This document shows, piece after piece, positions 16,904-54,411 of a stretch of DNA of 64,000 bases (the stretch's first letter is position 1; every line of letters starts with the position of its first letter). Position numbers and translations under genes: made by a program. Below the pieces are notes generated by a model. It did no database searches, had not been told where the DNA came from, and was given only the letters and a program-made list of their open reading frames with translations. Source of the DNA: Fimicolochytrium jonesii (Eukaryota); contig NW_026515687.1 in NCBI RefSeq assembly GCF_025526975.1, positions 62,001 through 126,000 on the forward strand, read 5' to 3'.

Positions 16904-17375
16904 GGAGTGAGGCCGAACCTTTTCCTCAGAGGTGGGAAGTTCAAGTTTACTGTACGTAATAAATGGAATTATTATTAGCCGCCAATTGGAGGCATCGCCC
17001 CCGCGCCCGCCCCCCTTTGCTCAAGTCAGTGTCACAAGCCTGTGATGCTCCCATGTGAAACCGTCGCTACTATGAGTCACCCACGGTAACTTATAGCGTT
17101 TGGGGAATTCATTTTCGACGGCGACACTCTTTTTCGCACGTGGACAGGATATGGCATTGATGACTCCAGCCAAGTATACTTAGCAGATATAGCCCGCATC
17201 CAAGGGAAATTTGCGAGAAATCGCTCCGAGGGACGCGTCGAGGCCTAAAAATCGGCCCGAGGCTTGGACTATTTGCAAGGCCAAGACAAGGCCCCAAGGA
17301 TCGATTTGAGCGATTTCCCGAGAGGACAAGGGTTATATCGTATTTATCGCACACACCGTACAACAAATATTCTGC

Positions 17376-19327
17376 TTAAGATTTATAGTTGACACAGTTG
17401 ATAACAGTCATGTGGCCAACCTTTGCATTGGCCAGGAAACTACCAAAGCTACAGGCTACATGGGCTGCATCTGATTCTACTCCGTCAGGAAGTTTGGATG
17501 CTTCATCAGCATCATCCGCATTGGCTGATTTGGGCCTGGCAGGAATCTTGACCTTCAACCGCTTGATAGGAGACTTGGCGGGATGCGCCATGGTGCTGGC
17601 TTTCGTCTCGGTAGCCGTCCAGGAATTGATGGTTTGCGTGCCAACAATGATGGGCAGCTCATTCTCCTTTCTTTTGGCACTTGTTGGATCGAGCACTTTA
17701 GCGACAGCAAGGCGATGAGTTTCCTTCATTCGAGAGTACGAGGCAAGGCCTGCGGCGCTGCGGTGTCCTGAAGTTTTCTGGGTGATATCCTGATGGACCC
17801 CAGCTTCAAGAAGTGCCGTAATTGCTGTGGCGCGGCCAGAGTGCGGGACAAGCTTTCGGTGGTTGCAATCGATTCCAGCCTGAATGAACGCTTCTTTCAA
17901 CCACTTTGAGATGGTATTTTTGCCAACGGGGGCATCGATGTACCATTTGCCGGATGCCAAGAGGTTTTTGGCTGAGTTTGCACGGACAAAGAATCGTGAA
18001 GTGTTCAGTCCAGAATGCTTCTCAAGGTATTTCCGAATGTCGGCAGAGGGTCCTGATTGCCCAACGGTGAGCGGAGTGACATCGACTCTAGCAACGAGGC
18101 CTTTAGCACGGCGGTGAGGTAGGCAGGGATATATAGATGTATTATGGGTAAAGAAGAAAAGAGAAAGCCGGCGCAGTCGCGCGCGAATATGTACAAGTAG
18201 AAAAATCCAACAACAAGTCATGTGACCAAGGGATATAAACTAGCTACTGGGTTAGGGTTACCGCGTTACCGCAGGGAGCTAGGGTTGCGGGAATATGACT
18301 CGGCTCCCCACCACACCACAGCGGCCGCCCTGGTGATTCGTTTCGACGGTCATGGTTCTCTCAAAATAGTACTCCCCAGCAGCCATCATCTTCAGCTTCA
18401 GATCTGGAACCTCCATGTGGCTTGCCTCTCCTCTGCGCTCAACGAGGAAGACTGACAGGTAGAGGTAAACGCGGTGGAGAAGGCCTTCCGGCGTGTCCAC
18501 CGAGCAGAAGGCTGAACCCAGCATAGTGCGAAATTCTTCAAGGCTGAGGTCAGAGGCTGCGTTGGTCCCACCATTGCCCATCTTCTGTAAGTTGGCCATC
18601 CTCACGTTGAGAATAGTACGTGCACCACGGAACTCAGTGTCAGACTGAATATTGACAACCCGGTTGTTTTCCTCCCCTTTGAGTTTGAGATAGCGGCCAA
18701 GACTACCAAAGCCAGTATCCAAGCTGGAGTCACGAAACTCTTCCCCATTGTCCATTTTGACCTGAATGATGAAGGCCTCCAAGTCCTAGATGGTTTGCGT
18801 GAAGTAGGTATCAGCTTTGAGGTCAAACAAATGGACCGTGCGGAAGCAGTGTGGGTTCTCACCTTGTTCAATTGAGCAACGTTGACAGTGCCATCTTCAT
18901 AGGTCAAGTGGCACTCTTCCTTGTACTGGTTCCATTTTTTGACCCACGTCTTTGTAGAGCGGACGGTGTTTGGGTTGTTGTCTGCCTCCTTAATCCTCTG
19001 TATCTCCTCCTCGGACAACGGTGGAAATCTCGGCGCAAGATTCCCAGGAATCAGCTTCCTCTTCAAAGGCAAAGTGATGGCAATGGTATCGTCAGGGCCT
19101 GGTTTGCAAGGCACGGCACTGGGCTTATGGTCCTGGTCCTCAGCCTCCTTCGACATTCTCTGAGTGTAGTCCCACTCTTCCTGAAGCCGGTCAAAGGAAT
19201 TGCGGCGGCCTCTATTGTAGACTTCAGGCTCTGGCTCTTCCTGGCCTGCGGGGAACTGTGAGAGGGCCTCCTCTGCCTCCATTGGAGTGAGGATAGGGTA
19301 GTGATCATCACCCATGTCAGACAGCAT
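17376..19327 (-). mobile_element. Crypton-type (DUF3504-like) tyrosine recombinase gene, interrupted by a solo LTR
   Basis: Motifs NNPNTVRSTKTWVKKW, RRGE (catalytic R), NHQGG, HSGRAT (HxxR) and SGHRS...Y (H, Y). Intron 18786-18862. The frame is restored when 18115-18320 plus one TSD is removed. Element ends not located. Confidence 0.85.
18115..18320. mobile_element. 206-bp solo LTR-like insertion with 4-bp TSD GCGG
   Basis: Begins TGAGG, ends CCACA (TG...CA). Flanked by GCGG at 18111-18114 and 18321-18324. Contains TATA-like boxes. Confidence 0.8.
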
Positions 19328-20354
19328 GTCGGAGGTTGGGGTGCTGATTGCAATGCTGATCTCAAGATCTGGGACGTAAGTTGGCAAGGCCGGGGTGACG
19401 ACGGGAGACGTGGGTGTACCTTGGCTGTCGCGAGTGCCAAAATCCAGGCTGCCCCTCAAGCGATTGGCTTTGGTAATGTTCTTGAATTGAATTGCCCAGT
19501 CCTGTGTTTTCAAAAACAGATGTACATACAACCACGTACTGCTGGTCCTGGAATAGCACTGGTGTGCTATTCCAGCGCATAGGTGCGTCGCAAAGTTGGT
19601 GCTATTTGACTTTCGAATAGCCCTGGTCTCCAATAGCACCGGTGTGCGATAACATGTGCGCTTGTACATAACTGAGTTTTGATGAGTGCAGGCTTGTCAA
19701 TATACAGTACAGCGATGAATGCATTGCCATAAAAAATGCAACTTGCTCAACGGATAGTGTTGGGCATTCGGCGCTGAACAACAGTTCCAACGGTACTCGG
19801 ATGCACGAATCTTGACAGCACCGCAGCACGTGAATAGGGTAACCAGAGGGGCGGGACATCCTTGACAATTGATGCCAGGATACCACCTGCGACCAGGCAA
19901 TCCATGAGCCCGGGTTGATTCAAGAAAAAAAGAGCTTCTCGTGATGATGGCGGATGAATATCGATCGGCAAAGATGATGATCGCGTATACTATACACTTC
20001 GTATAGAGCGCGCGGTAAGCGGACGAGGGGAGGGCCATTCCCTTCACCCGTTCCAATCGAATGCCAAATAGTACCATTCCATTCATAATTCACGGTCAAG
20101 TTTCCGCTTCCATACCGTCCCTCGCGCGAGAGACACAACACCCCAGCCGTGGGACTTATTAGTACATACTTACGCCGAAAGCCAGAAACGACCGTTGCCC
20201 CTCGTGGAGAAAGCCCCTCACCTCACCGACGATCGTTATACAGAAAGCGCTGTTGACGAGCTCCGAATCCACTCTAGCCTGGTTTCCCAGGCACACCGCG
20301 GAGCATCTCCCTGAAATCAGATTCCCACGGGACTTTTGCGCAAGCGGACCGCAA

Positions 20355-29325: not shown

Positions 29326-29363
29326 CACTGGCCTGTTTTTATACAAGTTGCCTTCATCGGCGA

Positions 29364-29438
29364 CGCCTCAGACAGAGGTACAATGATGTGGATGGCAGAT
29401 AACCACCACGGAAAATGGGATGGGGTGAGGATTCTAGA
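29364..29438 (-). ncRNA. Candidate Fanzor omegaRNA (scaffold hairpin plus flank-derived guide)
   Basis: After the Fanzor stop: UUUUCC, hairpin GUGG-UGGU/GCCAUCCAC (29388-29409), element end CAUCAUUG, UA, then flank CCUCUGUCUGAGGCG. Position matches known TnpB/Fanzor omegaRNA layout; the 5' limit is unknown. Confidence 0.5.
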
Positions 29439-32338
29439 CTACCTACGGTTACGGGAGAATGCGTCTGGTCTGCGGCCATCAACGCCAAACACCACCGAAC
29501 GCACAATTGAGAGGAAATTCTTGGTGCTTAGGACGTCCCGATTGTGCACTTTCATCCGTAGTGGTCGTCTTCCAGCAATCTCAAATGGCGTCCAGTCTTG
29601 GTTGATACATTCGGGGTTGGGGCAACCCACCAATCCATGGACGAATTCCATTCTTCCTTTTCTAGCTTGCCACGGCCGAGATGACAGCCGGCGTCGGATG
29701 TTTTTCTTCACATGGCCGTGGCAGTCGGGGCACATGGACGACGTTCGATACTCATCTAGCAAGTAGCATGGAATGCTGTTTCTTGCAAAGAGTGTGCGGA
29801 ACCTGATTTCCATGATGAGTTAGCATATTATAATACATAAAAAACAACGATGGCCACTCACCCTTTGGTCTTTGTTGACTCCTGAAAGCGCATGGTTCTT
29901 CCAGCGTCGCTCCAATCACCCAAGATGACCGAAAAATGCTTTCCATACAGGCGTCGCATGTTCTTGATGAGTTTGCTCTCAGACTTTTGCCGCAGTGAAA
30001 ACGCCTTGAATCTGCGAGCCACATGAATCTCATCCTGGTAAAACTCATCCAGGGCGGGATCTGGGATATGGATGTCAGCCCATGTATTACCAAAGTTGAA
30101 AATCAAAGTTGAAGTAGAACATCATACCCGCATGTTCGTAATCCACGATGAACGCTGAGAACGCCTGAATGTTCATGCTCTTGTGCGACGGAATATGTGA
30201 TTCCATCTCAGCAATGCCGGGCATTGATCTTTCGCTCCGTCATGTCTCGTTAAAAATGCCGAGACTTTGTCTCGACCGCCCGTTGATTGGATGTGTATCT
30301 GATATGGGGTGATGCATTGTGAGAACGCTGCAGTGGAATGTCGCTGCAACGGGGATGGTGGGGAAGGTGACGGAGGGGATGGTGACTGGGGGGATGGTGA
30401 CGGGGGGGATGGTGGGGACGGGGATGGGGACAGGGTTGAGGAGGGCGTTGATGGGGATGGCAGGGATGGCGGAGGCGGCGACAGCGGCGACAGTGGCGAC
30501 AGCGGGGAGAGCGGGGATAGCGGCGACAGCGGGGATAGCAGCAACAGCGGGGACAGCAGGGCAGTAGTAATCAACTGAGACGTACCGAAATGGCCGCTCC
30601 TTCTTGATGTCTCGACAGAACAAGAGGTCACGCTTGCCTGGATCAATGCAGACGATGTTTGGAGCCTCCCGTAGTTCGGCGATGTGGTGCTCAAAATACA
30701 GCTGCTTGACTTCTTCCTGCATTTGGGCCTTGCTGCGCTTCCGGGCCCGATGCCCATACTTGAGCCCTGGCTTCTTAAAGTGGATGGAAACGGAGTACCC
30801 GTTTGTGCTGATTGACCCATCAAATTTGAGACTAAGCTTCTTTCTATGCTTGAAGACCTTGTCCTACAATCCGTCATTCAGCAAGGTAATCAGATTGAAA
30901 TAAGCGCAGAAGGATACAGACTTACATTGATATTGAGAAACTGCCCCCACAGCTCCCGCTTGCGTTCATCGGTGAATTTCCCCATGCAACTTCGGCCCAA
31001 GCCCAGGATATGGGTGCCTAGGATCAGCGTGTCGATCCAAACAGATGACTGGATTCGAGATTTGTGCAGCAGGATAGCCGAAAACAGCCGCATTCCACGG
31101 CGCTCATAGAGACGTGACAGCTCACAATACGCACCTGTGATGAGGCGAGGCAGGTGCGGACCATCATTAGACAAAAGAGGAAGCGGGGGGGGCCGGAAAT
31201 ATACTAACTCACCTGAATATGGCGTTGCGTCCACCGCAAGGCTGTACGCAAGTGGCTCATCCTGGGGAGGAAACAGAGCCCATAGCTCGTCGAGGACAGT
31301 CCGCTCAAGTCGTGTGAGGCGCGCAAACTCCTCTTCGGTTGGAAACTCTTCAAACGTCGCATACTTTGTAAACTGACGGACACGCTGATAATAGTGTCGC
31401 CGCTGCGCTCGGTTGACTCCGGCTCTACGGAGATGCAGTACGACTTGCTTCAAACCAAGCCTTTCATTGACATAGCGCAGAAACATTTGCATGAAATGCT
31501 CCTGTACGTTAACTTTGAGGTTTGTGAGGATGCTCTTAGCTGTGTACGCTGCAGTCTGTTGGCAGTTTTGCATGCGGATGGGGGCGAATCCGTGAACATC
31601 ACAGTAGCCTTGAACCCGTGGACGCAGCTCTTGCGCGATGACTGGATTGCCATTGTAGCCTGGATTGTTTAGCAGCTCAAATATCACACTTATGTGCTTG
31701 TCGGTGATGTCTGGGAAATTGTGTAGAGGATGATCGGCTGTGGTGGGCAGACGTAGCAGTCAGGACATTGTTTGATGGGAAATATACAGTTTAGTGAACC
31801 TCAAAAACTCACCAAGGTAGAACTTGAGAAAGAAGGTGGTGCGGCGCGCAAGGATGTGAACATTGCCGATGAATGTTGTCAAGCGCTCCCTTTGAACTTG
31901 ATTTTGATTATGGATGATTTGGTGAAGCAAAACCTTGGTGCTGGCATGTGTCTGCGGGCGGGGTCGTTGAATTGGTGGTGGTGGTGGTTGGGGCTCATAC
32001 ACCAGGGATCCACCCGGTGTGCTGGGAAAACGGAAAGGGATGGGAGCAGGGAGGTTCAGCGGACGCTGCAGACCCCTGTCCACGGGTGAAAGCCCTCGCT
32101 GCTGGCGCTGCCCATCTTCATCGCCGGAACTCTTGCTAACCATGTCTGCAATTGCTTGGGGCAAGTGGCGCTGGACAGAAGGTGGGAAATCAAATCGCAG
32201 GGGTTGCAATGGTGTCTGCACAGCGGTTGGCAGATGCAGGGTAACGGGAGTAACCTTCCTCCTCTTCCGCCGTGGTGTGGTAGCTCCGGTAAAGATGCCA
32301 CACCACAGGCGCCCCTGGAGCGCCTGGTGTGATGACAT
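29439..32338 (-). pseudogene. Fanzor1 (TnpB-like RuvC RNA-guided endonuclease), 6 introns, one frameshift and one premature stop
   Basis: Spliced product has FDGSISTNGYSVS, RuvC-I CIDPG, FRYTSNQR..ETK, ILGDWS, RuvC-II LLDEYRTSSMCPDC, second Zn pair CPNPEC and RuvC-III NRD. Introns 31738-31812, 31135-31212, 30864-30925, 30299-30585, 30061-30127 and 29803-29861. Extra base at ~30252 and in-frame TGA at 30240-30242. Start uncertain (ATG 32338 or 32143). Confidence 0.9.
30340..30562. repeat. G-rich 9-mer/15-mer microsatellite inside Fanzor intron 4
   Basis: Repeats of GGGGATGGTGAC.. and GACAGCGG(C/G) units. Confidence 0.85.
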
Positions 32339-32523
32339 GATGGCTGTGCTGTGCCGAGACAGGTGTTGCAGGCGATTGCCGTGATAGCTGTGTGTCAAAG
32401 AACTCGCATCAGTGCTGTCTGACAGCGGGGAGGATTTACAGCCTGGCGCAGTCGTGGCGCAGTCGTGGCTTGTCCACTGCTGATCGCCGCGCCTCCAAGG
32501 CCGCACTCTCCTCCTCTCACACG

Positions 32524-32987
32524 AAACGTCAAGCGCTCGCAGCTCACGCAACTCACGCAGAGCGCACTCTGAGCATGGAAACGTCAAGCGCTCGCAGCGG
32601 ACAACAGGCCCCTCACCCCCCTGGCCAACACCCACCTCCCTCCAGCTCAAGCGCGGCAACTCACGCAGAGCACTCTCTGAGCATGGAAACGTCAAGTGCC
32701 AATGAGGTGAGTCACTCGGCTGCTGTGCAGCCGCGGGCGTCTCCGCTGGGTGTTGACCGCCTGATCTCGCGGCCCATGTTGGGCACAACCGCCGCTTGTG
32801 GGAGGTCGACCTGCATGGGCTGTGCTGTCTGGGCGTGTTTGCCATACGCTGATCTCGCGGCCCATGTTGAGCACGACCGCCGCTTTGCGGGAGGTCAACC
32901 TGCATGGGGTGCGCTGCCTGGGCATGCTGCTGTGCGCTGGCCCATGCTGAGCACAACCGCCGCTTGCGGGAGGTCGACCTGCATGGG
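32524..32987. repeat. Two families of dispersed direct repeats in the Fanzor/TET divergent intergenic region
   Basis: GCAACTCACGCAGAGC.C.CTCTGAGCATGGAAACGTCAAG twice (~32549, ~32657) and AAACGTCAAG three times. A ~59-nt unit CTGATCTCGCGGCCCATGTTG.GCAC.ACCGCCGC...GGGAGGTC.ACCTGCATGGG at ~32761, ~32849 and (partial) ~32939. Confidence 0.85.
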
Positions 32988-33080
32988 ATGCGCCGCCCTG
33001 GTTGCGATCGGGCTAGGTCTGCTAACGCCTTCCCTTCCCCCACGCCCCCGGTCGCACCCACCGCGGTCGAGGCTCTTCTG

Positions 33081-34337
33081 ATGGGCATGGGCGAGACCCG
33101 CGCCACAGCTATCTTCGGTGACACGGTGGCCTTTTTGTATCCGCTGCTGGTAGACGCCGGCCTTGCCGCCCGGAACGCCAGCCTAGAAGACAAGGCTAAG
33201 GCGATTGGCCTTTTTTCACAGAAGATCAAGCAAGACAACCCCACCCTTTGGGGTTGGTGGATCAATAGGCCAACGCGCTCCCGTCACCAGAATAAGCGCG
33301 CCAAGCACCACATTGGGCTCCAGTCCGGCATCATCACCGCGATCAGCGATGGCAGTCTGACCACGGCCAACTTCTCAGTCGACCCCCAGCCCTCCGCTAG
33401 CCGCCCGGCTGTTCACATTGTGGTGCCAACGCCCGCCTTGTGCGATGGCTGGGAGGGCAAGATGGTCTATGCGGGGTTTGGGAAGAGGCCGGCGAAGGGG
33501 AGGGGCCTGGATGGGCTTGAGCAAATTGAACCCCAGGCGGGGGCCCACATCCACATCCGCGACGAGCACGGCGCCCTTGTGGCCACAATCTCGTACAATA
33601 GTGCGGGTCATCGCAAACACGATCTGCGGCTGGGGCTCATCGTCAAGTCCTGTGGATCCCGGTCGGCTGCGGTTCGATGGAGGGCCTCAAGGGGCACAAT
33701 GCACGCCGCGGGGCTTCGTCGTGGCAACAAGAACTTGGGATATGCCAGGGGGACATCGCACTATTCAATGAAAGGAGGGGCAGACATGTCCGCAAAGAAG
33801 TTTCTCGTCGCAATGGAAAAGGCCTTCACCAAGCGACTGCTGCAGGAGCTTGCCAACCGCAACCCCACCGCGGCGGCCTACCTGATGATGGCCATGCCAG
33901 AGGTGTACGGGCCAAATTCCGATGAGTTCCCCCCGCTGTTCGCCACCACCAACTATCAAGTGGTTGTTCACTCCGACCCGTCGGACAACGGTGCAGCCGT
34001 CAAGCTGAACCCGCACACAGGCCGCGCCATATGGAAGCTGACCCCCAAGGAGGAGCTTCCGGAGGAGCTTCAAGCCCGCAAGCTATGCGCGCAATGGGCG
34101 GGAGGCTACGCCGCTGCTCCGGCAACCGTCATCGGCGAGTGGGTATTTGCGCTGCCAGAGCAAGGCTTCTACTTGGTGCTGCAGCCCGACTGCATGTGGA
34201 CGAGGATGCCTCACAAGCTCCACGGAATGGCGGTGCTTGACACGTCCAGCGGCAGTCGCCACACGGCTGTTGTGACGCTGCCCTTGGCGACGGCCGCGGC
34301 CATCCAGAAATACGGCCTCCCTGATGAAGATGAATAA
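33081..34337 (+). CDS. TET/JBP-family 2OG-Fe(II) dioxygenase, intronless, apparently intact
   Basis: GTMHAAGLR, FATTNYQVVVHSDPSD (HxD), FALPEQGFYL, LHGM (distal H) and SRHTAVV (2OG-binding R). Aligns motif by motif with the second copy at 46.3-47.2 kb. Start uncertain (ORF open from 32904). Confidence 0.75.
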   Translation: MGMGETRATAIFGDTVAFLYPLLVDAGLAARNASLEDKAKAIGLFSQKIKQDNPTLWGWWINRPTRSRHQNKRAKHHIGLQSGIITAISDGSLTTANFSVDPQPSASRPAVHIVVPTPALCDGWEGKMVYAGFGKRPAKGRGLDGLEQIEPQAGAHIHIRDEHGALVATISYNSAGHRKHDLRLGLIVKSCGSRSAAVRWRASRGTMHAAGLRRGNKNLGYARGTSHYSMKGGADMSAKKFLVAMEKAFTKRLLQELANRNPTAAAYLMMAMPEVYGPNSDEFPPLFATTNYQVVVHSDPSDNGAAVKLNPHTGRAIWKLTPKEELPEELQARKLCAQWAGGYAAAPATVIGEWVFALPEQGFYLVLQPDCMWTRMPHKLHGMAVLDTSSGSRHTAVVTLPLATAAAIQKYGLPDEDE

Positions 34338-34876
34338 TGTTATGATCTCGACGACTGAGGCGGAAGTGAAGTAGAGAAGACAGGGCGAGAGTGGTAGGCG
34401 ACAAGAGATTGTATTGGCGAAACAAGGAACAAGGACTAGAACAGGAGATGAGAAGAACTGGTGTTGATCTGCTGGGGAGGAAGGGAATGGACGAAGAGAG
34501 GCCGGCTATTTATAGACAGGCAACCCGGCAGATCAGAGAACAACAACAACAAGAGGGGACTGGGGGGGCGCCAGCTATGCTCCTAGAGCGTGCGTGGCGA
34601 GCGTAGAGAGCATTGCTACAGCTGCTGGCTATGGGGAAGTAGTGGAGGGTGTGGAGAAGCCGAGGGGGGATTGGCGAAATGAGAGGAGAGAGGAGGAGTG
34701 GCGATACTGCAAGAGGATTGATGAAATGAGAGGAGAGAGGGGGAGTGGCATTGACATTGACATTGACACTGACATTGACACTGACATTGACATTGACATT
34801 GGCGTTTGACATTTGGCGGTTGACATTGGCGGCTGTCAGTAGGTAAGCTTATGGTATGGGCGCATTGTCCATAACA
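34338..34876 (-). repeat. LTR A (539 bp)
   Basis: TGTTATG...CATAACA termini, TATA box, internal (GACATT)n tract. Confidence 0.95.
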
Positions 34877-34888
34877 TCACCCCTCTCT

Positions 34889-37800
34889 TTAGCGGCGGCG
34901 GCGGCGGCGTCGAGTTTGGTGTGGCCGCAGAGGAAGTGCTACGGGGACAGAGGAAGGCTTGTTGGGGTACGCGCTGTGGAAGTCCTGGAGGAGTGCGTCG
35001 GTATGGGTGAGGTGTTCCACGGGCTCCCAGGTGTTCTCGGAGTCAGGCCAGCCCTGCCATTTGACTAAGTACTGAAGGCGACGACAATGGATGCGAGAGT
35101 CAAGGATGGCTTCGACAACCCACTCTTCTTGACCCTCAACGGTCTCTGGGGGCGCGGGTTCGGGTTCGTGTCGTTCGGGGATGGTGAAGCGGGGTTCGAG
35201 GAGAGAGACATGGAAGACATCGTGGATTTTGTACGTAGGCGGGAGCTTGAGCCGGTAGGCGACAGGATTGATTTTTTCAACGATGGGGAATGGCCCAATC
35301 TTGCGATGGTCGAGTTTCTGAGAGGGCCGGGTTGTCTGGAGGTTTTTGCAGAGGAGCCAGACGTGGTCGCCAGGCTTGAAGTCCGGTCCAGGAATTCGTT
35401 TAGCGTCGGCGTAGCGCTTCATTTGATCTTGGGCTTCCTTGAGCTCGAGGGAGAGCTGTTCATGGACTCCCCTGATTTGTTTAGCGCGGGCTTCAGCGGC
35501 GGGGTTGACGGATTCGGAGGTAGCAGAGGCCACGAAACTGAAGCGGGGGTGGAGACCCTTGTTGGCGTAGAAGGGGGTGGTCTGGGAGGCGGACTGGTGG
35601 GTGTTGTTGTAGGCGAACTCGGCGGACGACAGAAGCTGTTTCCAGTTGTCCTGTTGGTGGTTGCAAAAGCATCGGAGATACTGCTCCAGGATCTGGTTGG
35701 TGCGTTCCGTCTGGCCATCGCTCTGGGGGTGGAAGGCCGAGGAGAGGTTGGCTTTTGCCCCAAGGAGTTCGAGAAGTCGACGCCAGAACCGGGACTTAAA
35801 CTGGGGTCCTCGGTCAGAGATGACGTCGTCGGGGAGGCTGTGGAGACGGATGATGTTGTGGAAGACTAGGTCGGCGGTGGATTCGGCGGATTCTGACTCG
35901 CTGCAGGCAATGAAGTGGGCCATCTTGGTGAGGCGACAGTTGACGTTCAGGATGGAGTTGAACCCGTCGACGGGAGGCAGACCGGTGATAAAGTCTAGGG
36001 ACCAAGATCCCCAAGGGCGGGTAGGGATACTGTTGGGCTGGAGTAGGCCATATGGTTTGTGTCGACTGGATTTCGCTTGGCTACAGGTATTGCAGGACTT
36101 GACGTAGGCCTTGACGAAGCGCCACTGGCTGAGCCACCAGTAGTTGCGGGAGGCAAGTTCGAGCGTCTTGGACATCCCAAAGTGGCTGGCTAGGGGTGTA
36201 TCGTGCATGTCGTGGCAGACTTCAGCTCGGAGCTCGTTGGTGGGGACATAGACCAGGTTATCGTGCAGCAGGATCCATCTCCATCTGAGAACCGCTTGAT
36301 ACAATCTTGGGTTTGCTCGGTTCGTTGGGCGAGGGGTATCTTGAGCTTCTTGCGAATGGTCTTAGCGAGGGGATCAGAGGCCTGGGCGGCCTTAATCTTG
36401 TCAAGCAGCGTGGTATTCATGGGTGTGAGGTAGGCCGCGGCGAGTCGAAGGCGTTCGGGAGTCAGAATTGTGGTTGCCTGGGAGCGGAACGCTCCTTCCC
36501 CCTCTTTCAGCTCATGTTCGGAGCGTCGGGAGAGGGCATCGGCTTGGTGCTGCTGGGAACCGGGGCGATAGGTAATGACAAAGTCAAAATCCGAGAAGAA
36601 TATCGACCAGCGGGCTTGGCGGCGGTTCAGGGTGCGGGTGGTCATGAAGTACTGAAGGTTTTTATGGTCGGAGTAAACGGTGATCTTGTGACGGGCGCCA
36701 ATGAGATGGTGTCGCCACTGGGCAAAGGAGTCTTGGATGGCCAGAAGTTCCTTGTCGTAGATCTCGTAGTTGATCTCTTCGGCCGTGAATTTGCGAGAGT
36801 GGAAGGCCACGGGGTGGAGCTGATTGTCCTGGTCAGGTTGGAGGAGAACTGCGCCAAGAGCGAAGTCGGAGGCGTCAGTTTCGACGACAAAGGGCTTCTC
36901 TGGGTCAGGGTGATGTCTTTCCGGGTCAGGGCTGTGAGCGGGGTAGCGATCTTGGAATAACCTTGGATGAATCGGCGATAGAAGTTGGCAAAGCCGAGGA
37001 ACCGCTGAACGCCTTTGACAGTCTTGGGAGGTTCCCAATCCGTGATGGCAGCGATCTTCGTGGGGTCCATCTGGATGCCTTTCTCGGAGATGATGAAGCC
37101 TAGGAACTCAACGGATTCGCGGTTGAATTCGCACTTCTCTGGTTTGGCGTACAACCCATGCTGTCGGAGGCGGGACAGGACTTCGCGGACATGTTTGGGG
37201 TGATCTTCGGGGTTCTTGGAGAATATCAGGATATCGTCGAGGTAGACGACAACAAACACATCGAGAATGTCGCAGAAGATGTCGTTCATCAGGTACTGGA
37301 AGACGCCAGGAGCATTGCTGAGTCCAAAGGGCATGACATTGTATTCGAATAGACCGTAGCGGCAGCGGAAGGCGGTCTTCCATTCATCGCCCGGGCGCAT
37401 GCGTAAGAGGTTATAAGCGCCGCGGAGGTCGATCTTGGTGAGGCGGCGGGCGCCGCGCAAACGATCCATGATACCGTTGATCAGGGGCAGGGGGGTAGCG
37501 GTTCTTCACCGTGATGCTCTTCAGGCCTCGATAATCGACGCAGAGGCGGAGAGAACCGTCCTTTTTCTTCACGAATAAGACTGGCGCACCGGCAGGGGAC
37601 TTTGAGGGTTTGATGAATCCTTTGGCGAGGTTTTCTTCGAGGTATTCGCAGAGTGCCTTCATTTCTGGTTCGCTGAGGCTGTAGATCGGGCCGAAAGGTG
37701 GCTGCTTGCCTTCTTCCAGATCGATTGGACAGTCGTAGGGCCGGTGCTCGGGGAGAGTGTCACCATTTCTCTTTTCGAAAACGTTGGCGAAGTCTTGATA

Positions 37801-38721
37801 CTCGGGGGGCAGGAAGTCTTTGATGTCTTTCTCGGGTGTCGGGGGGTTACTGGGGATAGGCGAGGCCGGGAGATCGGGTTTCGCAGGGTTGACGTAGGTG
37901 ACAAAGACCTGGTCATGCCTTGCTGCGATCTGGAAGGCTGGGGCGGAGATGAACGAGACTCGGAGCGGCGTGGGAGCCGGTTCTGGGGTGCTGGAGCAAG
38001 ATACCTTGGGTACTGGGATCGACCATGTTTTGGCGACGGGGACTTCATCCTGGGGGATGCGGATCAAGGGCTCGGGGGTTCTGGCGGGTGCTGGGCTCGG
38101 GGGTGCTGGAGAGTTGTCCCAATTTGCGAATTCATGGTACTGACAGTCGCAACGGAAACCGACCGAAAGGTTCTTGAAGTCAACGTTAATGTCGTGGAGG
38201 CGGAGCCAGGGGAGACCAAGGAGGATTGGAGCATGGGGTGATTTGGTGACATGGGAGACGAGTTCTTCGAAGTGGTTGTCGACCCACATGCCTACTGGTT
38301 GGGTGTGATGGGTGATTGGCCCAGCAGAGCTGGGTTGACCGTCAACGAGTTCAATTGTCAGTGGACGCTGATGCGGGACTAGGGCGATGCGGTGTTTGCG
38401 GGCAAAGTCTCTGTCGATGAAGCAGGACAGGGCACCGTTGTCGATCATGGCTGAGGTAGGTATCCGGGCGCGGCTGGATGATACCATGATGGTAACGGGG
38501 TAGTTGAAGGGTTCGACGGGACCCAGCGCAAGCATGGCGCGGGGGTTGATTTCGGAGTTTTCGACATGGGCAGCGGCTAGGAGGGTTGTGTCGGCTATAA
38601 CGGAGTCGGGAACCAGGGGGGTGGCCTCTCCCGTTGCAGGAGCTGCGAGGTTAGGAGGCCCGGGGCGGTGTGTGTTGTCCAGTCGCTGGGGCTTTACTGC
38701 GGCTGGACTTTGGGAAAACCC
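34889..38721 (-). pseudogene. pol: pol, copy 1 (PR-RT-RH-IN-chromodomain), frameshifted, with ~80-nt deletion near 36912
   Basis: ORF pieces 37411-38535, 36642-37469, 36190-37038 and 34889-36304. Deletion seen by comparison with 42352-42430. Confidence 0.92.
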
Positions 38722-39692
38722 TGTTCGGTGAAGGGTTCTTTGATGTCGACGTTGGCGGCACGGGTAGTGGTCTTGTTCTTGACGGGGCAGACTTTTGCAA
38801 TGTGCCCCGCGCCACTGCAGTAAAGGCAGAGGTTGTTGGAAATGCGGCGTTGGCGTCCCTGAGGGCTCAGAGGGCCGCGGGGACGAGCGGCATCAATCTG
38901 CATAGGCTCGCTGTGGTCGACAGTGGTGGTAGTAGTAAACGAGGTGTGGGGGACCGGGAAGGTCTGGCGGCTTCTGCTTTGCTCCAGGCGGCGCTCAAAC
39001 AGCCGGTTATCGCACTGGATAGCCTGCTCCATCACCACATCAATGGTGGCCGCAGGGGGCATTGTGAGCGTCAGGTCTTTGACGTCTTCTTTGAGGCCGC
39101 GGCGGAAGGTAGCAATCAGGGCCTGGTCGTTCCAGGAGACATCGCATTGTAGCTGGCGGAACTCAGCGACGAACTTGGTTGCTGCATGGGTTTGGCGAAG
39201 GTTCTGGAGCTTGTTTTCAGAGGTGCGGACCCTGTCGCTGTCTCCGAAGACCGATTGCATCTGACTGATAAAACTATCGAAGTCCTGAAGGCTGTGATCT
39301 TGGCGTTCGACTAGGGGCGCCATCCAGGCTTGCGCAGTGCCGGTGAGGTAGGTGCCAATAGTTTGGATCTTGATGATGTCGCTGGGGTAGCGGCCGGGCT
39401 GGAGAGCAAACATCAACCGGATGTTGTTCAACCACCCACGGAATTTGCTGCGGCAACCATCAAACTTCTCGGGCGAGCTGATTCTTGGCTCCAGAGCAGG
39501 GTTGGCGACTTGGGGACGGGTGTACGTATCGGCTTGAACCTGGACGGCGATGCTCTGGGCAGCTTGTGCGTCGGCTTGGGCTTGCGCTAGGTTGGCCTGC
39601 AAGTTGGCGTTTTGGCTTTGCAAGGCAGCGATGGCTTGGCACATATCGTTCCATTGCTTGGCGGTGAAAGGTACGGATTCGGGTTGGGACAT
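38694..39692 (-). CDS. gag: gag, copy 1 (PEG10/sushi-like capsid with CCHC knuckle)
   Basis: PEKFDG...[29 protein letters not shown]. Confidence 0.92.
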
Positions 39693-39762
39693 GGCGAAAA
39701 AGGTTTGTCGGATGCAGGGCTGGACAGGGATCTGAACTTCGCAGTGTTGGAGCAGATCAAAC

Positions 39763-40309
39763 TGTTATGATCTTGACGACGGAGGCGGAAGCGAAGTAGA
39801 GAAGTACAGGGCGAGAGTGATAGGCGACAAGAGATTGTATTGGCGAAACAAGAAACAAGGACTAGAACAGGAGATGAGAAGAACTGGTGTTGATCTGCTG
39901 GGGAGGAAGGGAATGGACAAAGAGAGGCCGGCTATTTATAGAGAGGCAACCCAGCAGATCAGAGAACAACAACAACAAGAGGGGACTGGGGGGGGCGCCA
40001 GCTATGCTCCTAGAGCGTGCGTGGCAAGCGTAGAGAGCATTGCTACAGCTGCTGGCTATGGGGAAGTAGTGGGGGGTGTGGAGAAGCTGAGGGGGGATTG
40101 GCGAAATGAGAGGAGAGAGGAGGAGTGGCGATATTGCAAGAGGATTGGCGAAATGAGAGGAGAGAGGGGGAGTGGCATTGACATTGACATTGATATTGAC
40201 ACTGACATTGACACTGACATTGACATTGACATTGGCGTTTGACATTTGGCGGTTGACATTGGCGGCTGTCAGTAGGTAAGCTTATGGTATGGGCGCGTCG
40301 TCCATAACA
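39763..40309 (-). repeat. LTR B (shared central LTR, 547 bp)
   Basis: Near-identical to LTR A and LTR C. Confidence 0.95.
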
Positions 40310-40321
40310 TCACCCCTCTCT

Positions 40322-43300
40322 TTAGCGGCGGCGGCGGCGGCGTCGAGTTTGGTGTGGCCGCAGAGGAGGTGCTACGGGGACAGAGGAAGGCTTGTTGGGG
40401 TACGCGCTGTGGAAGTCCTGGAGGAGTGCGTCGGTATGGGTGAGGTGTTCCACGGGCTCCCAGGTGTTCTCGGAGTCAGGCCAGCCCTGCCATTTGACCA
40501 AGTACTGAAGGCGACGACAATGGATGCGAGAGTCAAGGATGGCTTTGACAACCCACTCTTCTTGACCCTCAACGGTCTCTGGGGGCGCGGGTTTGGGTTC
40601 GTGTCGTTCGGGGATGGTGAAGCGGGGTTCGAGGAGCGAGACATGGAAGACATTGTGGATTTTGTACGTAGGCGGGAGCTTGAGCCGGTAGGCGACGGGA
40701 TTGATTTTTTCAACGATGGGGAATGGCCCAATCTTGCGATGGTCGAGTTTCTGAGAGGGCCGGGTTGTATGGAGGTTTTTGCGGAGGAGCCAGACGTGGT
40801 CGCCAGGCTTGAAGTCCGGTCCAGGAATTCGTTTGGCGTCGGCGTAGCGCTTCATTTGATCTTGGGCTTCCTTGAGCTCGAGGGCGAGCTGTTCATGGAC
40901 TTCCCTGATTTGTTTAGCGCGGGCTTCAGCGGCGGGGTTGACGGATTCGGAGGTAGCAGAGGCCGCGAAACTGAAGCGGGGGTGGAGACCCTTGTTGGCG
41001 TAGAAGGGGGTGGTCTGGGAGGCGGACTGATGGGTGTTGTTGTAGGCGAACTCGGCGGACGACAGAAGCTGTTTCCAGTTGTCCTGTTGGTGGTTGCAAA
41101 AGCATCGGAGATACTGCTCCAGGATCTGGTTGGTGCGTTCCGTCTGGCCATCGCTCTGGGGGTGGAAGGCCGAGGAGAGGTTGGCTTTTGCCCCAAGGAG
41201 TTCGAGAAGTCGACGCCAGAACCGGGACTTAAACTGGGGTCCTCGGTCAGAGATGACGTCGTCGGGGAGGCCTGTGGAGACGGATGATGTTGTGGAAGAC
41301 TAGGTCGGCGGTGGATTCGGCGGATTCTGACTCGCTGCAGGCAATGAAGTGGGCCATCTTGGTGAGGCGACAGTTGACGTTCAGGATGGAGTCGTACCCC
41401 GTCGACGGGAGGCAGACCGGTGATAAAGTCCAGGGACCAAGATCCCCAAGGGCGGGTAGGGATACTGTTGGGCTGGAGTAGGCCATATGGTTTGTGTCGA
41501 CTGGATTTCGCTTGGCTACAGGTATCGCAGGACTTGACGTAGGCCTTGACGAAGCGCCACTGGCTGAGCCACCAGTAGTTGCGGGAGGCAAGTTCGAGCG
41601 TCTTGGACATCTCAAAGTGGCCTGGCTAGGGGTGTATCGTGCATGTCGTGGCAGACTTCAGCTCGGAGCTCGTTGGTGGGGACATAGACCAGGTTATCGT
41701 GCAGCAGGATCCCATCTTCATCTGAGAACCGCTTGATACGATCTTGGGTTTGCTCGGTTCGTTGGGCGAGGGGTATCTTGAGCTTCTTGCGAATGGTCTT
41801 AGCGAGGGGATCAGAGGCCTGGGCGGCCTTAATCTTGTCAAGCAGCGTGGTATTCATGGGTGTGAGGTAGGCCGCGGCGAGTCGAAGGCGTTCGGGAGTC
41901 AGAATTGTGGTTGCCTGGGAGCGGAACGCTTCCTTCCCCCTCTTTTAGCTCATGTTCGGAGCGTCGGGAGAGGGCATCGGCTTGGTGCTGCTGGGAACCG
42001 GGGCGATAGGTAATGACAAAGTCAAAATCCGAGAAGAATATCGACCAGCGGGCTTGGCGGCGGTTCAGGGTGCGGGTGGTCATGAAGTACTGAAGGTTTT
42101 TATGGTCGGAGTAAACGGTGATCTTGTGACGGGCGCCAATGAGATGGTGTCGCCACTGGGCAAAGGAGTCTTGGATGGCCAGAAGTTCCTTGTCGTAGAT
42201 CTCGTAGTTGATCTCTTCGGCCGTGAATTTGCGAGAGTGGAAGGCCACGGGGTGGAGCTGATTGTCCTGGTCAGGTTGGAGGAGAACTGCGCCAAGAGCG
42301 AAGTCGGAGGCGTCAGTTTCGACGACGAAGGGCTTCTCTGGGTCAGGGTGAGCAAGGATGGGGGCGGTGGTGAATGCTTTCTTCAGGTTCTCGAAGGCGG
42401 TGTTTGCGGCGGGTGTCCAGGCGTACGGGATGTCTTTCCGGGTCAGGGCTGTGAGCGGGGTAGCGATCTTGGAATAACCTTGGATGAATCGGCGATAGAA
42501 GTTGGCAAAGCCGAGGAACCGCTGGACGCCTTTGACAGTCTTGGGAGGTTCCCAATCCGTGATGGCAGCGATCTTCTTGGGGTCCATCTGGATGCCTTTC
42601 TCGGAGATGATGAAGCCTAGGAACTCAACGGATTCGCGGTTGAATTCGCACTTCTCTGGTTTGGCGTACAACCCATGCTGTCGGAGGCGGGACAAGACTT
42701 CGCGGACATGTTTGGGGTGATCTTCGGGGTTCTTGGAGAATATCAGGATATCGTCGAGGTAGACGACAACAAACACATCGAGAATGTCGCAGAAGATGTC
42801 GTTCATCAGGTACTGGAAGACGCCAGGAGCATTGCTGAGTCCAAAGGGCATGACATTGTATTCGAATAGGCCGTAGCGGCAGCGGAAGGCGGTCTTCCAT
42901 TCATCGCCCGGGCGCATGCGTAAGAGGTTATAAGCGCCTGCGGAGGTCGATCTTGGTGAGACGGCGGGCGCCGCGCAAACGATCCATGATACCGTTGATC
43001 AGGGGCAGGGGGTAGCGATTCTTCACCGTGATGCTGTTCAGGCCTCGATAATCGACGCAGAGGCGGAGAGAACCGTCCTTTTTCTTCACGAATAAGACTG
43101 GCGCACCGGCAGGGGACTTTGAGGGTTTGATGAATCCTTTGGCGAGGTTTTCTTCGAGGTATTCGCAGAGTGCCTTCATTTCTGGTTCGCTGAGGCTGTA
43201 CATCGGGCCGAAAGGTGGCTGCTTGCCTTCTTCCAGATCGATTGGACAGTCGTAGGGCCGGTGCTCGGGGAGAGTGTCAGCATTTCTTTTTCGAGAACGT

Positions 43301-44239
43301 CGGCGAAAGTCTTGATACTCGGGGGGCAGGAAGTCTTTGATGTCTTTCTCGGGTGTCGGGGGGTTACTGGGGCTAGGCGAGGCCGGGGAGATCGGGTTTC
43401 GCAGGGTTGGCGTAGGCGACAAAGACCTGGTCATGCCTTGCTGCGACCCGAAAGGCTGGGGCGGAGATGAACGAGACTCGGAGCGGCGTGGGAGCCGATT
43501 CTGGGGTGCTGGAGCGAGATACCTTGGGTACTGGAATCGACCATGTTTCGTCGACGGGGACTTCATCCTGGGGGATACGGATCAAGGGCTCGGGGGTTCT
43601 GGCGGGTGCTGGGCTCGGGGGTGCTGGAGAGTTGTCCCAATTCGCGAATTCATGGTACTGGCAGTCGCAACGGAAACCGACCGAAAGGTTCTTGAAGTCA
43701 ACGTTAATGTCGTGGAGGCGGAGCCAGGGGAGACCAAGGAGGATTGGAGCATGGGGTGATTTGGTGACATGGGAGACGAGTTCTTCGAAGTGGTTGTCGA
43801 CCCACATGCCTACTGGTTGGGTGTGATGGGTGATTGGCCCAGCAGAGCTGGGTTGACCGTCAACGAGTTCAATTGTCAGTGGACGCTGATGCGGGACTAG
43901 GGCGATGCGGTGTTTGCGGGCAAAGTCTCTGTCGATGAAGCAGGACAGGGCACCGTTGTCGATCATGGCTGAGGTAGGTATCCGGGCGCGGCTGGATGAT
44001 ACCATGATGGTAACGGGGTAGTTGAAGGGTTCGACGGGACCCAGCGCAAGCATGGCGCGGGGGTTGATTTCGGAGTTTTCGACATGGGCAGCGGCTAGGA
44101 GGGTTGTGTCGGCTATAACGGAGTCGGGAACCAGGGGGGTGGCCTCTCCCGTTGCAGGAGCTGCGAGGTTAGGAGGCCCGGGGCGGTGTGTGTTGTCCAG
44201 TCGCTGGGGCTTTACTGCGGCTGGACTTTGGGAAAACCC
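40322..44239 (-). pseudogene. pol: pol, copy 2, several small frameshifts
   Basis: ORF pieces 43373-44053, 42928-43566, 41838-42917, 41612-41857, 40852-41610 and 40322-40855. Confidence 0.92.
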
Positions 44240-45210
44240 TGTTCGGTGAAGGGTTCTTTGATGTCGACGTTGGCGGCACGGGTGGTGGTCTTGTTCTTGA
44301 CGGGGCAGACTTTTGCAATGTGCCCCGCGCCACTGCAGTAAAGGCAGAGGTTGTTGGAAATGCGGCGTTGGCGTTCCTGAGGGCTCAGAGGGCCGCGGGG
44401 ACGAGCGGCATCAATCTGCATAGGCTCGCTGTGGTCGACAGTGGTGGTAGTAGTAAACGAGGTGTGGGGGACCGGGAAGGTCTGGCGGCTTCTGTTTCGC
44501 TCCAGGCGGCGCTCAAACAGCCGGTTATCGCACTGGATAGCCTGCTCCATCACCACATCAATGGTGGCCGCAGGGGGCATTGTGAGCATCAGGTCTTTGA
44601 CGTCTTCTTTGAGGCCGCGGCGGAAGGTAGCAATCAGGGCCTGGTCGTTCCAGGAGACATCGCATTGTAGCTGGCGGAACTCAGCGACGAACTCGGTTGC
44701 TGCATGGGTTTGGCGAAGGTTCTGGAGCTTGTTTTCAGAGGTGCGGACCCTGTCGCTGTCTCCGAAGACCGATTGCATCTGACTGATAAAACTATCGAAG
44801 TCCTGAAGGCTGTGATCTTGGCGTTCGACTAGGGGCGCCATCCAGGCTTGCGCAGTGCCGGTGAGGTAGGTGCCAATAGTTTGGATCTTGATGATGTCGC
44901 TGGGGTAGCGGCCGGGCTGGAGAGCAAACATCAACCGGATGTTGTTCAACCACCCACGGAATTTGCTGCGGCAACCATCAAACTTCTCGGGCGAGCTGAT
45001 TCTTGGCTCCAGAGCAGGGTTGGCGACTTGGGGACGGGTGTACGTATCGGCTTGAACCTGGACGGCGATGCTCTGGGCAGCTTGTGCGTCGGCTTGGGCT
45101 TGCGCTAGGTTGGCCTGCAAGTTGGCGTTTTGGCTTTGCAAGGCAGCGATGGCTTGGCACATATCGTTCCATTGCTTGGCGGTGAAAGGTACGGATTTGG
45201 GTTGGGACAT
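44212..45210 (-). CDS. gag: gag, copy 2
   Basis: 332 aa, near-identical to copy 1. Confidence 0.92.
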   Translation of the reverse strand: MSQPKSVPFTAKQWNDMCQAIAALQSQNANLQANLAQAQADAQAAQSIAVQVQADTYTRPQVANPALEPRISSPEKFDGCRSKFRGWLNNIRLMFALQPGRYPSDIIKIQTIGTYLTGTAQAWMAPLVERQDHSLQDFDSFISQMQSVFGDSDRVRTSENKLQNLRQTHAATEFVAEFRQLQCDVSWNDQALIATFRRGLKEDVKDLMLTMPPAATIDVVMEQAIQCDNRLFERRLERNRSRQTFPVPHTSFTTTTTVDHSEPMQIDAARPRGPLSPQERQRRISNNLCLYCSGAGHIAKVCPVKNKTTTRAANVDIKEPFTEQGFPKVQPQ

Positions 45211-45279
45211 GGCGAAAAAGGGTTGTCGGATGCAGGGCTGGACAGGTTCTGAACTTCGCAGTGTTGGAGCAGATCAAAC

Positions 45280-45818
45280 TGTTATGATCTTGACGACGGA
45301 GGCGGAAGCGAAGTAGAGAAGTCAGGGCGAGAGTGATAGGCGACAAGAGATTGTATTGGCGAAACGAGAAACAAGGACTAGAACAGGAGATGAGAAGAAC
45401 TGGTGTTGATCTGCTGGGGAGGAAGGGAATGGACGAAGAGAAGCCGGCTATTTATAGATAGGCAACCCAGCAGATTAGAGAACAACAACAACAAGAGGGG
45501 ACTGGGGGGGCGCCAGCTATGCTCCTAGAGCGTGCGTGGCGAGCGTAGAGAGCATTGCTACAGCTGCTGGCTATGGGGAAGTAGTGGGGGGTGTGGAGAA
45601 GCCGAGGGGGGATTGGCGAAATGAGAGGAGAGAGGAGGAGTGGCGATATTGCAAGAGGATTGGTGAAATGAGAGGAGAGAGGGGGAGTGGCATGGACATT
45701 GACATTGACACTGACATTGACACTGACATTGACATTGACATTGGCGTTTGACATTTGGCGGTTGACATTGGCGGCTGTCAGTAGGTAAGCTTATGGTATG
45801 GGCGCGTCGTCCATAACA
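45280..45818 (-). repeat. LTR C (539 bp)
   Basis: TGTTATG...CATAACA termini. Confidence 0.95.
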
Positions 45819-46295
45819 GTACGGGGACATGCCTGTAGAGGTCTGGGGCATCCTGTTGTAGTTGTACTCGAGGAGGGGAAGCATCTCGCGCCAGTTCGAG
45901 CCGGTGTAGTTCAGGTAGGGGGCCATCATCTTCTTGATTGTCTTGATGACGTTCTCCGTCTTGCCGTTGGTCTGTTGGTGTCGTGCCGACGAGAGTTTCT
46001 GCTCTACGCCGGCGCACTTCAGGAGGTGCTTCCAAAAGCCGCCGGTACATTTGGTGTCCTGATCACTGATGATCGTGTGGGGCATGCCCGTGATGCGGAA
46101 GGCCTGGTCGAAGAACAGCTGGGCGAGTTCCTTTGCCGTCGCCTTGGCGTGGGTCTCAAGGAGGATTACGCGGCTGGATAAGTAGTCCACCAGGATGAGG
46201 ACGACTCCCTTGTCCATGACGGACTCGTCTTCCACTTCCCCCCCCTTAGAGTTCGTCGTGGGGAAGTAGATGTCCAAGCCGACGCAACGCCAGCG
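45819..46295 (-). pseudogene. Integrase core fragment of a third Gypsy family
   Basis: WRCVGLD...VDYLSSRV...GMPHTIISDQD...SSARHQQTNGKTE...TGMSPY, cut by LTR C. Resembles the integrase at 49868-50776. Confidence 0.85.
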
Positions 46296-46309
46296 AAGTT
46301 GATCACGAT

Positions 46310-47462: not shown

Positions 47463-47505
47463 ACGGCGTGGCGGAGAATAGACGGAAGCAAAGCCCGTTA
47501 GGGTT

Positions 47506-54317: not shown

Positions 54318-54411
54318 TCTTGCTTGTGAACGAGTGTAAGTGGGACGTCCGGTAGAGGGGCAACGTTGACAAGGAATGTCTTGGTGATGCTAGCGGTAGG
54401 TGGTGCTACCA

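What the first reader, a model, noticed from the sequence alone, without database searches (positions are those of the whole stretch)
29439..34337. Fanzor1 nuclease gene paired head-to-head with an intact TET/JBP dioxygenase
Seen: a spliced Fanzor1 gene (minus strand, RuvC D-E-D present) and an intronless TET/JBP ORF (plus strand, HxD...H...R present) diverge from a ~0.7-kb repeat-rich spacer. Established: Fanzors are RNA-guided nucleases carried by transposons, and fungal TET/JBP genes travel with KDZ and Plavaka transposons and oxidise methylated DNA bases. I do not know of a described Fanzor+TET cassette. Inference: one element combines guide-directed cutting of the empty site with removal or modification of silencing marks. 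TET could also protect the element, license the target, or be recruited by the RNP.
Basis: partly seen in the sequence, partly recalled or inferred. Interest (0 to 1): 0.92.

Follow-up and report, generated by a model that had tools for sequence, protein, structure and literature searches.

The report
Chytrid transposon pairing Fanzor with TET
In a chytrid fungus, a CRISPR-like Fanzor nuclease gene (broken in this copy) sits head-to-head with a gene for a likely TET-type DNA-base oxidase at about nine places in the genome, so the two likely travel as one jumping element that would combine RNA-guided cutting with escape from DNA-methylation silencing, a pairing we did not find in print.

Summary
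The window carries a 7-exon Fanzor1 gene (29439-32338, minus), a close relative of SpuFz1. This copy is broken by a nonsense codon and a +1 frameshift. A 418-codon ORF with HxD...H...R (33081-34337) faces away from it across a 0.74-kb repeat spacer. Both genes are multicopy families in Fimicolochytrium jonesii. Seven of 11 other annotated copies of the ORF have a Fanzor model as the next accession (P about 1e-12), and one more gene model reads TET 5' end, spacer and Fanzor in the same order. The ORF is TET/JBP-like by collinear motifs only: Pfam misses it and both folds failed. A gypsy LTR cuts the element exactly at the TET stop, so the far end and any transposase are unseen. Most annotated Fanzor loci (38 of 46) show no annotated TET neighbour, and no linked locus has both genes intact. 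Both genes decay by CpG transitions. Best reading: one DNA-transposon family carrying two independent 'selfish helpers', a homing nuclease and a likely anti-silencing dioxygenase. Nothing supports physical coupling. It is a new combination of known passengers, so far in one species.

The parts
29439..32338 (-). Fanzor1 gene, 7 exons, 6 GT-AG introns, RuvC D-E-D and C4 zinc finger; pseudogene in this copy
30219..30252 (-). Lesions in exon 5: nonsense TAA (30252-30250, codon 529) and one extra base near 30221; they separate RuvC-I from RuvC-II/III
   Evidence: other copies read through
30299..30585 (-). Intron 4, 287 nt, filled with 9- and 15-bp tandem repeats; the same repeats show up in models of other copies (P0018, P0071, P0085)
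29344..29415 (-). Candidate omega-RNA scaffold and element end: TTTTCCG plus a hairpin begins 23 nt after the stop, as in the right ends of SPu-1 and SPu-2; a TA follows 72 nt on. Compared by eye; end point inferred
   Evidence: folding not better than shuffles; no Rfam match
32339..33080 (.). GC-rich (64%) divergent spacer with 89-bp x2.8 array (32761-32997) and 44-bp duplication; shared by other copies; no inverted-repeat partner of the Fanzor end
33081..34337 (+). Intronless 418-codon TET/JBP-like ORF (H297-x-D299, H381, R393); public model begins at 32988
34338..45818 (-). Tandem Ty3/gypsy (LTRs 34338-34876, 39764-40309, 45280-45818) that begins one base after the TET stop; 5-bp flanks differ, so no target-site duplication. 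Not part of the cassette; it removes the cassette's far end

Best explanation
This is a decayed, truncated copy of a multicopy fungal element in which a Fanzor1 gene and a likely TET/JBP-type dioxygenase gene lie head-to-head and likely move together as two independently acting passengers of one DNA transposon. Shown: gene anatomy, recurrence of the pair and its spacer on separate contigs, Fanzor at the outer edge with its 3' end pointing out, CpG-biased decay of both genes. Inferred from known families: in intact copies Fanzor binds an omega-RNA that runs over the element end and cuts element-free sites, which favours copying of the element by repair; the dioxygenase oxidises 5-methylcytosine (possibly also 6mA or T) laid on the element by the host, so that the shared GC-rich divergent promoter stays active. 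The transposase is inferred to lie beyond the TET gene or to act in trans; Fanzor-only copies would be truncation or deletion derivatives, or have unannotated TET remnants.
For: 7 of 11 other TET-like models have a Fanzor model at accession +/-1 (binomial P 8e-13 at p=0.008); 4 of these 7 came from look-ups not chosen by contig. Where two Fanzor pieces flank a TET, the more N-terminal piece is the nearer one (P0071/P0077, P0057/P0079). Model P0050 on a further contig reads antisense TET 5' end (97%), spacer repeats, then Fanzor N-terminus. Six TET models include spacer repeats. No inverted partner of the Fanzor end lies between or within the genes. TET-linked Fanzors fall on both sides of the best-supported split of the copy tree, which fits an old linkage. 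P0002 and P0005 share a tail beyond the TET stop that the window lacks, so the element goes on past the LTR. CpG-loss changes: 41 of 116 possible vs 39 of 547 other transitions in TET; 19/44 vs 24/233 in Fanzor exon 2. TET cargo on 11 fungal DNA-transposon lineages (PMC12730594) and Fanzor1 capture by 5 superfamilies (PMC3627910) are precedents.
Against: TET identity rests on motifs: no Pfam, PHROGs or PDB-sequence hit; the only controlled match covers 53 columns, with rows chosen after looking, and failed in global mode. No termini, target-site duplication or transposase were seen. Linkage at other loci is read from accession order and gene models, not DNA. 38 of 46 Fanzor loci have no annotated TET neighbour and 4 of 11 TET models have no Fanzor neighbour among those looked up. 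Only 4 of 12 TET copies are full length with all four residues, and CpG decay shows the enzyme did not keep these copies unmethylated. The copy tree is poorly resolved (2 of 19 branches starred). Seen in one species only.
Confidence: 0.6

Rival explanations
1. Two separate elements: a TET-bearing element inserts site-specifically upstream of Fanzor genes, so the pair is a nested insertion repeated many times.
For: TET-linked Fanzors do not form a clade (6 changes, shuffled mean 5.5); most Fanzor loci lack an annotated TET; GC differs (spacer 64%, TET 61%, Fanzor 53%); model P0018 stops matching the window 46 nt upstream of the Fanzor start.
Against: Same orientation and spacer wherever it can be read; no inverted end of the Fanzor unit in the spacer; repeated loss or missing annotation gives the same scatter; P0018's start may be a separate exon.
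Confidence: 0.13
2. The pair is one element, but the ORF is not a DNA-demethylating TET: it is another 2-oxoglutarate/Fe(II) enzyme or writes a different mark (as CMD1 or JBP do), for instance one that shields the element's own DNA.
For: No profile or structure hit; 33-residue insert after HxD; lacks the HxE hallmark of the PE type it most resembles; host genome has 1.84% 6mA (PMC11258239, supplement row).
Against: [quoted passage not shown]
Confidence: 0.15
3. Fanzor and the dioxygenase are mechanistically coupled: the RNP recruits the enzyme, or oxidation of methylated targets licenses cutting.
For: Fixed divergent arrangement around one spacer at about nine loci, which could allow co-expression.
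Against: Closest characterised relative SpuFz1 works alone and sits in a single-ORF element (PMC10432273, section 7); the intact copy P0032 has no annotated TET neighbour; no linked locus with both genes intact.
Confidence: 0.07
4. Chance neighbours in a transposon-rich region, spread by segmental duplication.
For: The right half of the window is a nest of gypsy and DNA-transposon debris, including a second, unrelated Tet-like gene.
Against: Pairs lie on nine contigs of different length, copies differ by 9-21% in protein, and P is 8e-13.
Confidence: 0.05

Closest known systems
SPu-1 / SpuFz1 Fanzor1 element of Spizellomyces punctatus (PMC3627910; PMC10432273; PDB 8gkh)
   Same: Protein match E 4.6e-149 over residues 129-759; multicopy; no transposase in view; TTTTCCG plus hairpin shortly after the stop (by eye); gypsy insertions common.
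   Different: SPu-1 is 2.1 kb, one exon, one ORF, with 30-33-bp inverted repeats. Here: 7 exons, a 130-residue low-complexity N-terminal extension, a second divergent gene, more than 5 kb, and no inverted partner within the part that survives.
TET+ DNA transposons of Dikarya (KDZ, hAT7, PHISTA, IS3EU, EnSpm, ESTA, Plavaka, Helitron1/2; PMC12730594; Iyer et al. 2014 cited through it)
   Same: TET/JBP-like passenger on a repeated element in a fungus; very divergent sequence, as for the PE type, which HHpred also barely detects; anti-silencing is the proposed role.
   Different: Chytrid host; partner is an RNA-guided nuclease; no transposase seen; HxD instead of the PE-type HxE; no match to PF20515 or PF12851. 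'Fanzor' and 'chytrid' have 0 occurrences in that paper's text and supplement.
[quoted passage not shown]
   Same: Fanzor at an element end; many truncated copies that keep the 3' part. Among 74 held models 42-47 cover the C-terminal region and 20-28 the N-terminal half (sample biased to C-terminal clusters), against 12 TET models.
   Different: No helicase, hairpin end or TTTT target could be tested here; no TET reported in the passages read.

Membership tests
Fanzor1 | RuvC-I DPG motif, shifted RuvC-II glutamate, C4 zinc finger, RD motif | tested here: met
   TNB domain weakly hit, E 0.008
Fanzor1 | Full-length homology to a solved Fanzor1 | tested here: met
   P0032 vs 8gkh E 4.6e-149; window pieces 88% and 92% identical to P0032
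Fanzor1 (active nuclease) | Uninterrupted reading frame joining the three RuvC motifs | tested here: not met
   stop at codon 529 and +1 frameshift in this copy; met by P0032
Fanzor1 | omega-RNA encoded over the right end | tested here: inconclusive
   motif and hairpin in the expected place by eye; fold z about 0; no RNA data
SPu-1-type element | 30-33-bp terminal inverted repeats and TA duplication | tested here: inconclusive
   no partner above background anywhere in the window, but the far end is removed by the LTR element
SPu-1-type element | Single intronless ORF | tested here: not met
   7 exons plus a second gene vs 1 exon
TET/JBP dioxygenases | HxD...H iron triad and 2-oxoglutarate arginine in order | tested here: met
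   H297, D299, H381, R393; all four kept in distant homologues P0097 and P0099, triad in P0098
TET/JBP dioxygenases | N-terminal G-x-M-x-x-x-G-x-R motif of fungal Tet-like proteins | tested here: met
   local hhalign score 28.7 vs shuffles 14.1 +/- 2.6, 0 of 60 as high; 53 columns only; rows chosen post hoc; global mode not significant
TET/JBP dioxygenases | Double-stranded beta-helix fold | tested here: inconclusive
   AlphaFold2 mean pLDDT 33 with 1 and with 13 sequences; fold searches uninformative
Pfam PF20515 / PF12851 | Score over the curated cut-off | tested here: not met
   no family at E<=1 or E<=10 for the ORF, two copies and four distant homologues; the second Tet-like gene at 46250 does hit, E 6e-38
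PE-type TET/JBP (PMC12730594) | HxE in place of HxD | tested here: not met
   HSD here; HTD, HED, HQD in homologues; rest of the motif order resembles PE type by eye
TET/JBP dioxygenases | Oxidation of 5mC, 6mA or T in DNA | not testable with these tools
   needs an assay
TET+ DNA transposons | Dispersed copies that carry the TET gene | tested here: met
   12 models on 12 contigs
TET+ DNA transposons | Transposase, termini and target-site duplication of a named superfamily | tested here: inconclusive

The most novel reading that the evidence does not exclude
A natural eukaryotic element that couples an RNA-guided nuclease to a DNA-modifying dioxygenase: the Fanzor RNP brings the enzyme to guide-chosen sites, or needs it to unmask methylated targets, making it a ready-made programmable epigenome editor built on an undescribed TET/JBP subfamily.
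Probability: 0.07. Interest if true: 0.9.

Novelty: new variant of a known kind. Interest (0 to 1): 0.62.

Why it matters
What Fanzors do for their transposons in vivo, and what transposon-borne TET/JBP enzymes do, are both open. A family that carries both, next door to the model chytrid Spizellomyces and its well-studied SpuFz1, gives natural with/without comparisons: Fanzor copies with and without the dioxygenase, in a genome where CpG decay marks the family as methylated. It extends TET-carrying elements to chytrids (the 2025 survey lists only Dikarya), adds a divergent TET-like subfamily that Pfam misses, and supplies an intact intron-bearing Fanzor1 (P0032) as a new nuclease candidate.

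Tried and rejected
No sequencing run was listed; this says nothing on expression. AlphaFold2 twice gave pLDDT 33; Foldseek and VIA-align on that model matched only a helix pair; ESM Atlas gave no usable hit and holds no model. PDB-sequence searches with the ORF, its alignment and two homologues found nothing significant. An HMM of the family ranked the second Tet-like gene first among 1274 other frames but at E 2.2. No relative of the TET-like ORF in metagenome contigs or phages; two metagenome Fanzor loci were too short to show a neighbour; none in viral contigs. An attempt to collect prokaryotic PF12851 members for a profile-profile test found 0 in 806 genomes, and none for the second Tet-like gene. 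The first tree had the window row out of frame and was redone. My first reading of the lesions was wrong and is corrected. Three short proteins in Fanzor clusters (P0078, P0082, P0096) are unrelated and were dropped, as was P0101, a repeat artefact. Rejected: that the second Tet-like gene (46250-47214) and the Ulp1 fragment belong to this cassette, because the gypsy between them has no target-site duplication. No complex prediction was run, since I do not claim binding.
Full report
Observation. The minus-strand gene is a Fanzor1. Seven exons from 32338 to 29439 are joined by six GT-AG introns. The spliced frame is 2272 nt, one base too long, and has a stop at codon 529. The part before the stop is 462/526 identical and the part after the frameshift 198/216 identical to P0032, an intact 761-aa copy of the same family. 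P0032 matches SpuFz1 (PDB 8gkh) at E 4.6e-149. DPG lies before the lesions, DEY and NRD after them, so this copy cannot make a nuclease. The nonsense change is a substitution, which makes a pure homopolymer assembly error unlikely (inference). A public model, P0088, equals the window's exons 6 and 7. The plus-strand ORF 33081-34337 is open and intronless. The spacer holds an 89-bp x2.8 array and a 44-bp duplication.

Both genes are families. A search of proteins of 229-732 aa returned 9 clusters for the ORF, all named Fimicolochytrium jonesii apart from the window's own entry; with cluster members that makes 12 models on 12 contigs. Two Fanzor searches (476 aa and over; 417 aa and under; 418-475 aa not searched) returned 11 and 37 clusters, 41 of them from the same species; I hold 74 such models. 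ORF fragments under 229 aa were not searched.

The pair recurs. I looked up 30 of the protein clusters, giving 52 Fanzor accessions. Seven of the 11 other TET-like models have a Fanzor model at accession +/-1; four do not among those looked up. With p=0.008 per model, P is 8e-13. Three of the seven partners were picked for look-up because they shared a contig with a TET model; four were not. Where two Fanzor pieces lie beside a TET model the more N-terminal piece is nearer. Independent of accessions, model P0050 on another contig starts with the antisense of the TET 5' end (97% over 39 residues), continues through the spacer repeats and enters the Fanzor N-terminus. Six TET models include spacer repeats at their start. 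With the window that makes nine loci. The link is one-sided: the 52 accessions form 46 loci, of which 7 plus the window's own have an annotated TET neighbour and 38 do not. Unannotated remnants, as at P0050, would raise the share. In a quick tree of 22 N-terminal rows the six linked copies are scattered (6 changes, shuffled mean 5.5; 2 of 19 branches starred) and fall on both sides of the best-supported split. That fits an old link with repeated loss, or repeated insertion.

Ends. On the left a spliced host-like gene ends at 29326 facing the Fanzor (coiled-coil, TACC-like by eye; label recalled, not tested), so one end lies within about 110 bp. There, 23 nt after the stop, TTTTCCG starts a hairpin (the 7-mer occurs 10 times in 128,000 strand-bases). 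The right ends of SPu-1 and SPu-2 in the supplement of PMC3627910 show the same motif and a hairpin at a like distance (by eye). A TA follows 72 nt on. The region folds no better than shuffles and has no Rfam match. No inverted partner stands out between the genes or elsewhere in the window. On the right a tandem gypsy starts one base after the TET stop; its flanks differ, and beyond it lies the integrase of another gypsy. Copies P0002 and P0005 share a tail past this point that the window lacks. So the far end and any transposase are missing here.

Is it a TET? Not formally shown. Pfam, PHROGs, PDB sequences and the ESM Atlas give nothing, and two AlphaFold2 runs failed at pLDDT 33. A full HMMER scan of 1.84 billion representatives found 8 hits: 3 own-family, 4 distant homologues from unnamed sources (28-38% identical in alignment) and one artefact. 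H297, D299 and H381 are kept wherever these homologues cover them; R393 in two of three. The order of motifs (G-x-M-x-x-x-G-x-R, long helix, PP-x-F-x-T-x-N-Y-x4-HxD, W-A-x-G, W-x-F-x2-PE-x-G, W-x-W-x4-HG, R-x-T) follows that of PU- and above all PE-type TET/JBP sequences in Table S1 of PMC12730594 (by eye). That paper notes HHpred E-values of 1.4 and 19 for the PE type, so a profile miss is expected for such proteins. One controlled test: a profile of six rows against the window's second, Pfam-confirmed Tet-like gene scored 28.7 locally against 14.1 +/- 2.6 for 60 shuffles, none as high, but over 53 columns only, with rows chosen after looking; the global mode was not significant. I put TET/JBP-type at about 85%.

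Selective context. Among amino-acid differences between the window and other copies, CpG-loss transitions are about five times as frequent as other transitions: 41 of 116 possible vs 39 of 547 in the ORF, and 19/44 vs 24/233, 9/20 vs 13/131, 12/35 vs 9/159 in three Fanzor exons. CpG observed/expected is 0.83-0.85 over Fanzor, spacer and ORF against 0.94-1.02 in host-like regions. In Spizellomyces 5mC is confined to transposons (PMC12695648, passage); F. jonesii has 1.84% 6mA (PMC11258239, supplement row). So the family is likely methylated by its host, which gives an anti-silencing enzyme a job but also shows incomplete protection. Four of 12 TET models are full length with all four residues; none of the 8 accession-linked loci has both genes intact as annotated.

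Mechanism. Most likely (0.6): one DNA-transposon family with two passengers that act separately, a guide-directed homing nuclease at the end and a dioxygenase that counters 5mC. All activities are inferred. Rivals: different chemistry (0.15), nested site-specific insertion (0.13), direct coupling (0.07), chance (0.05). The superfamily is open: the Fanzor points to an SPu-1-like inverted-repeat element; the excess of 3' pieces (42-47 C-terminal vs 20-28 N-terminal of 74 models, biased sample) recalls the truncated Helitron2 elements of PMC3627910.

Prior art. Eight searches found no paper that reports a Fanzor with a TET/JBP gene. Read: PMC12730594, parts 1-5 of 7 (all text before the references) and supplement searches (Fanzor, TnpB, chytrid: 0); PMC3627910, passages, section 15, supplement passages (files 13-14 not searched); PMC10432273, passages, section 7, supplement search (one scanned file not searchable; no dioxygenase, JBP or Fimicolochytrium entry; it mentions 11 Spizellomyces Fanzor loci with further genes, not named beyond gypsy); passages only of bioRxiv 2023.08.09.552727, PMC10288648, PMC11258239, PMC12695648, PMC13565253, PMC8226300, PMC11423790. 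Iyer et al. 2014 is not held and is cited second-hand. Repbase and subscription journals were not searchable, and bioRxiv supplements are closed; any of these could hold the family.

Verdict. Real, recurrent and not found in print, but a new combination of two known transposon passengers, in one species, with the enzyme's identity resting on motifs and no sign of coupling. Interest 0.62.

Noticed in passing
window 46250-47214 (+): Second, unrelated Tet-like gene (PF20515, E 6e-38), frameshifted near 46960, its 5' part abutting a gypsy integrase fragment (45819-46300). A classic-type TET in a chytrid, outside the lineages of the 2025 survey.
   Followed up: partly
window 47490-47815, 48074-48583, 54880-57205: Tandem repeats, an unknown ORF and, past another gypsy (48561-54905), ORFs ending in a Ulp1 protease fragment (PF02902, E 2e-4): possibly one large interrupted DNA transposon that owns the second Tet-like gene.
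   Followed up: no
window 17379-18239 (-): Tyrosine-recombinase fragment (PF00589, E 1e-7) among unannotated ORFs 14321-19696; possibly a Crypton- or DIRS-like element. Host-like genes lie between it and the Fanzor.
   Followed up: no
window 34338-45818: LTR-internal-LTR-internal-LTR tandem gypsy, the two units 98% alike with many one-base indels and no target-site duplication: ectopic recombination or an assembly join.
   Followed up: partly
protein P0097, residues 1-115: The closest foreign homologue of the TET-like ORF (41%) begins with four copies of a short peptide repeat, hinting at a tandem-repeat region upstream of the gene in another organism too. Its genome and neighbours could not be fetched.
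   Followed up: partly
protein P0037 (another contig): Fanzor N-terminus nearly identical to that of the TET-linked P0050, ending in sequence of the same gypsy LTR family as at 34338: this LTR family has hit the Fanzor family more than once.
   Followed up: partly
window 57691-61417 (+): Class C GPCR-like gene (7tm_3) with Ig-like and ephrin-receptor-like extracellular repeats.
   Followed up: no
window 1206-13561 (+): Dynein heavy chain gene with very long exons.
   Followed up: no
window 62673-62857, 63093-63779: 92-bp tandem duplication and an unknown ORF near the window's end.
   Followed up: no
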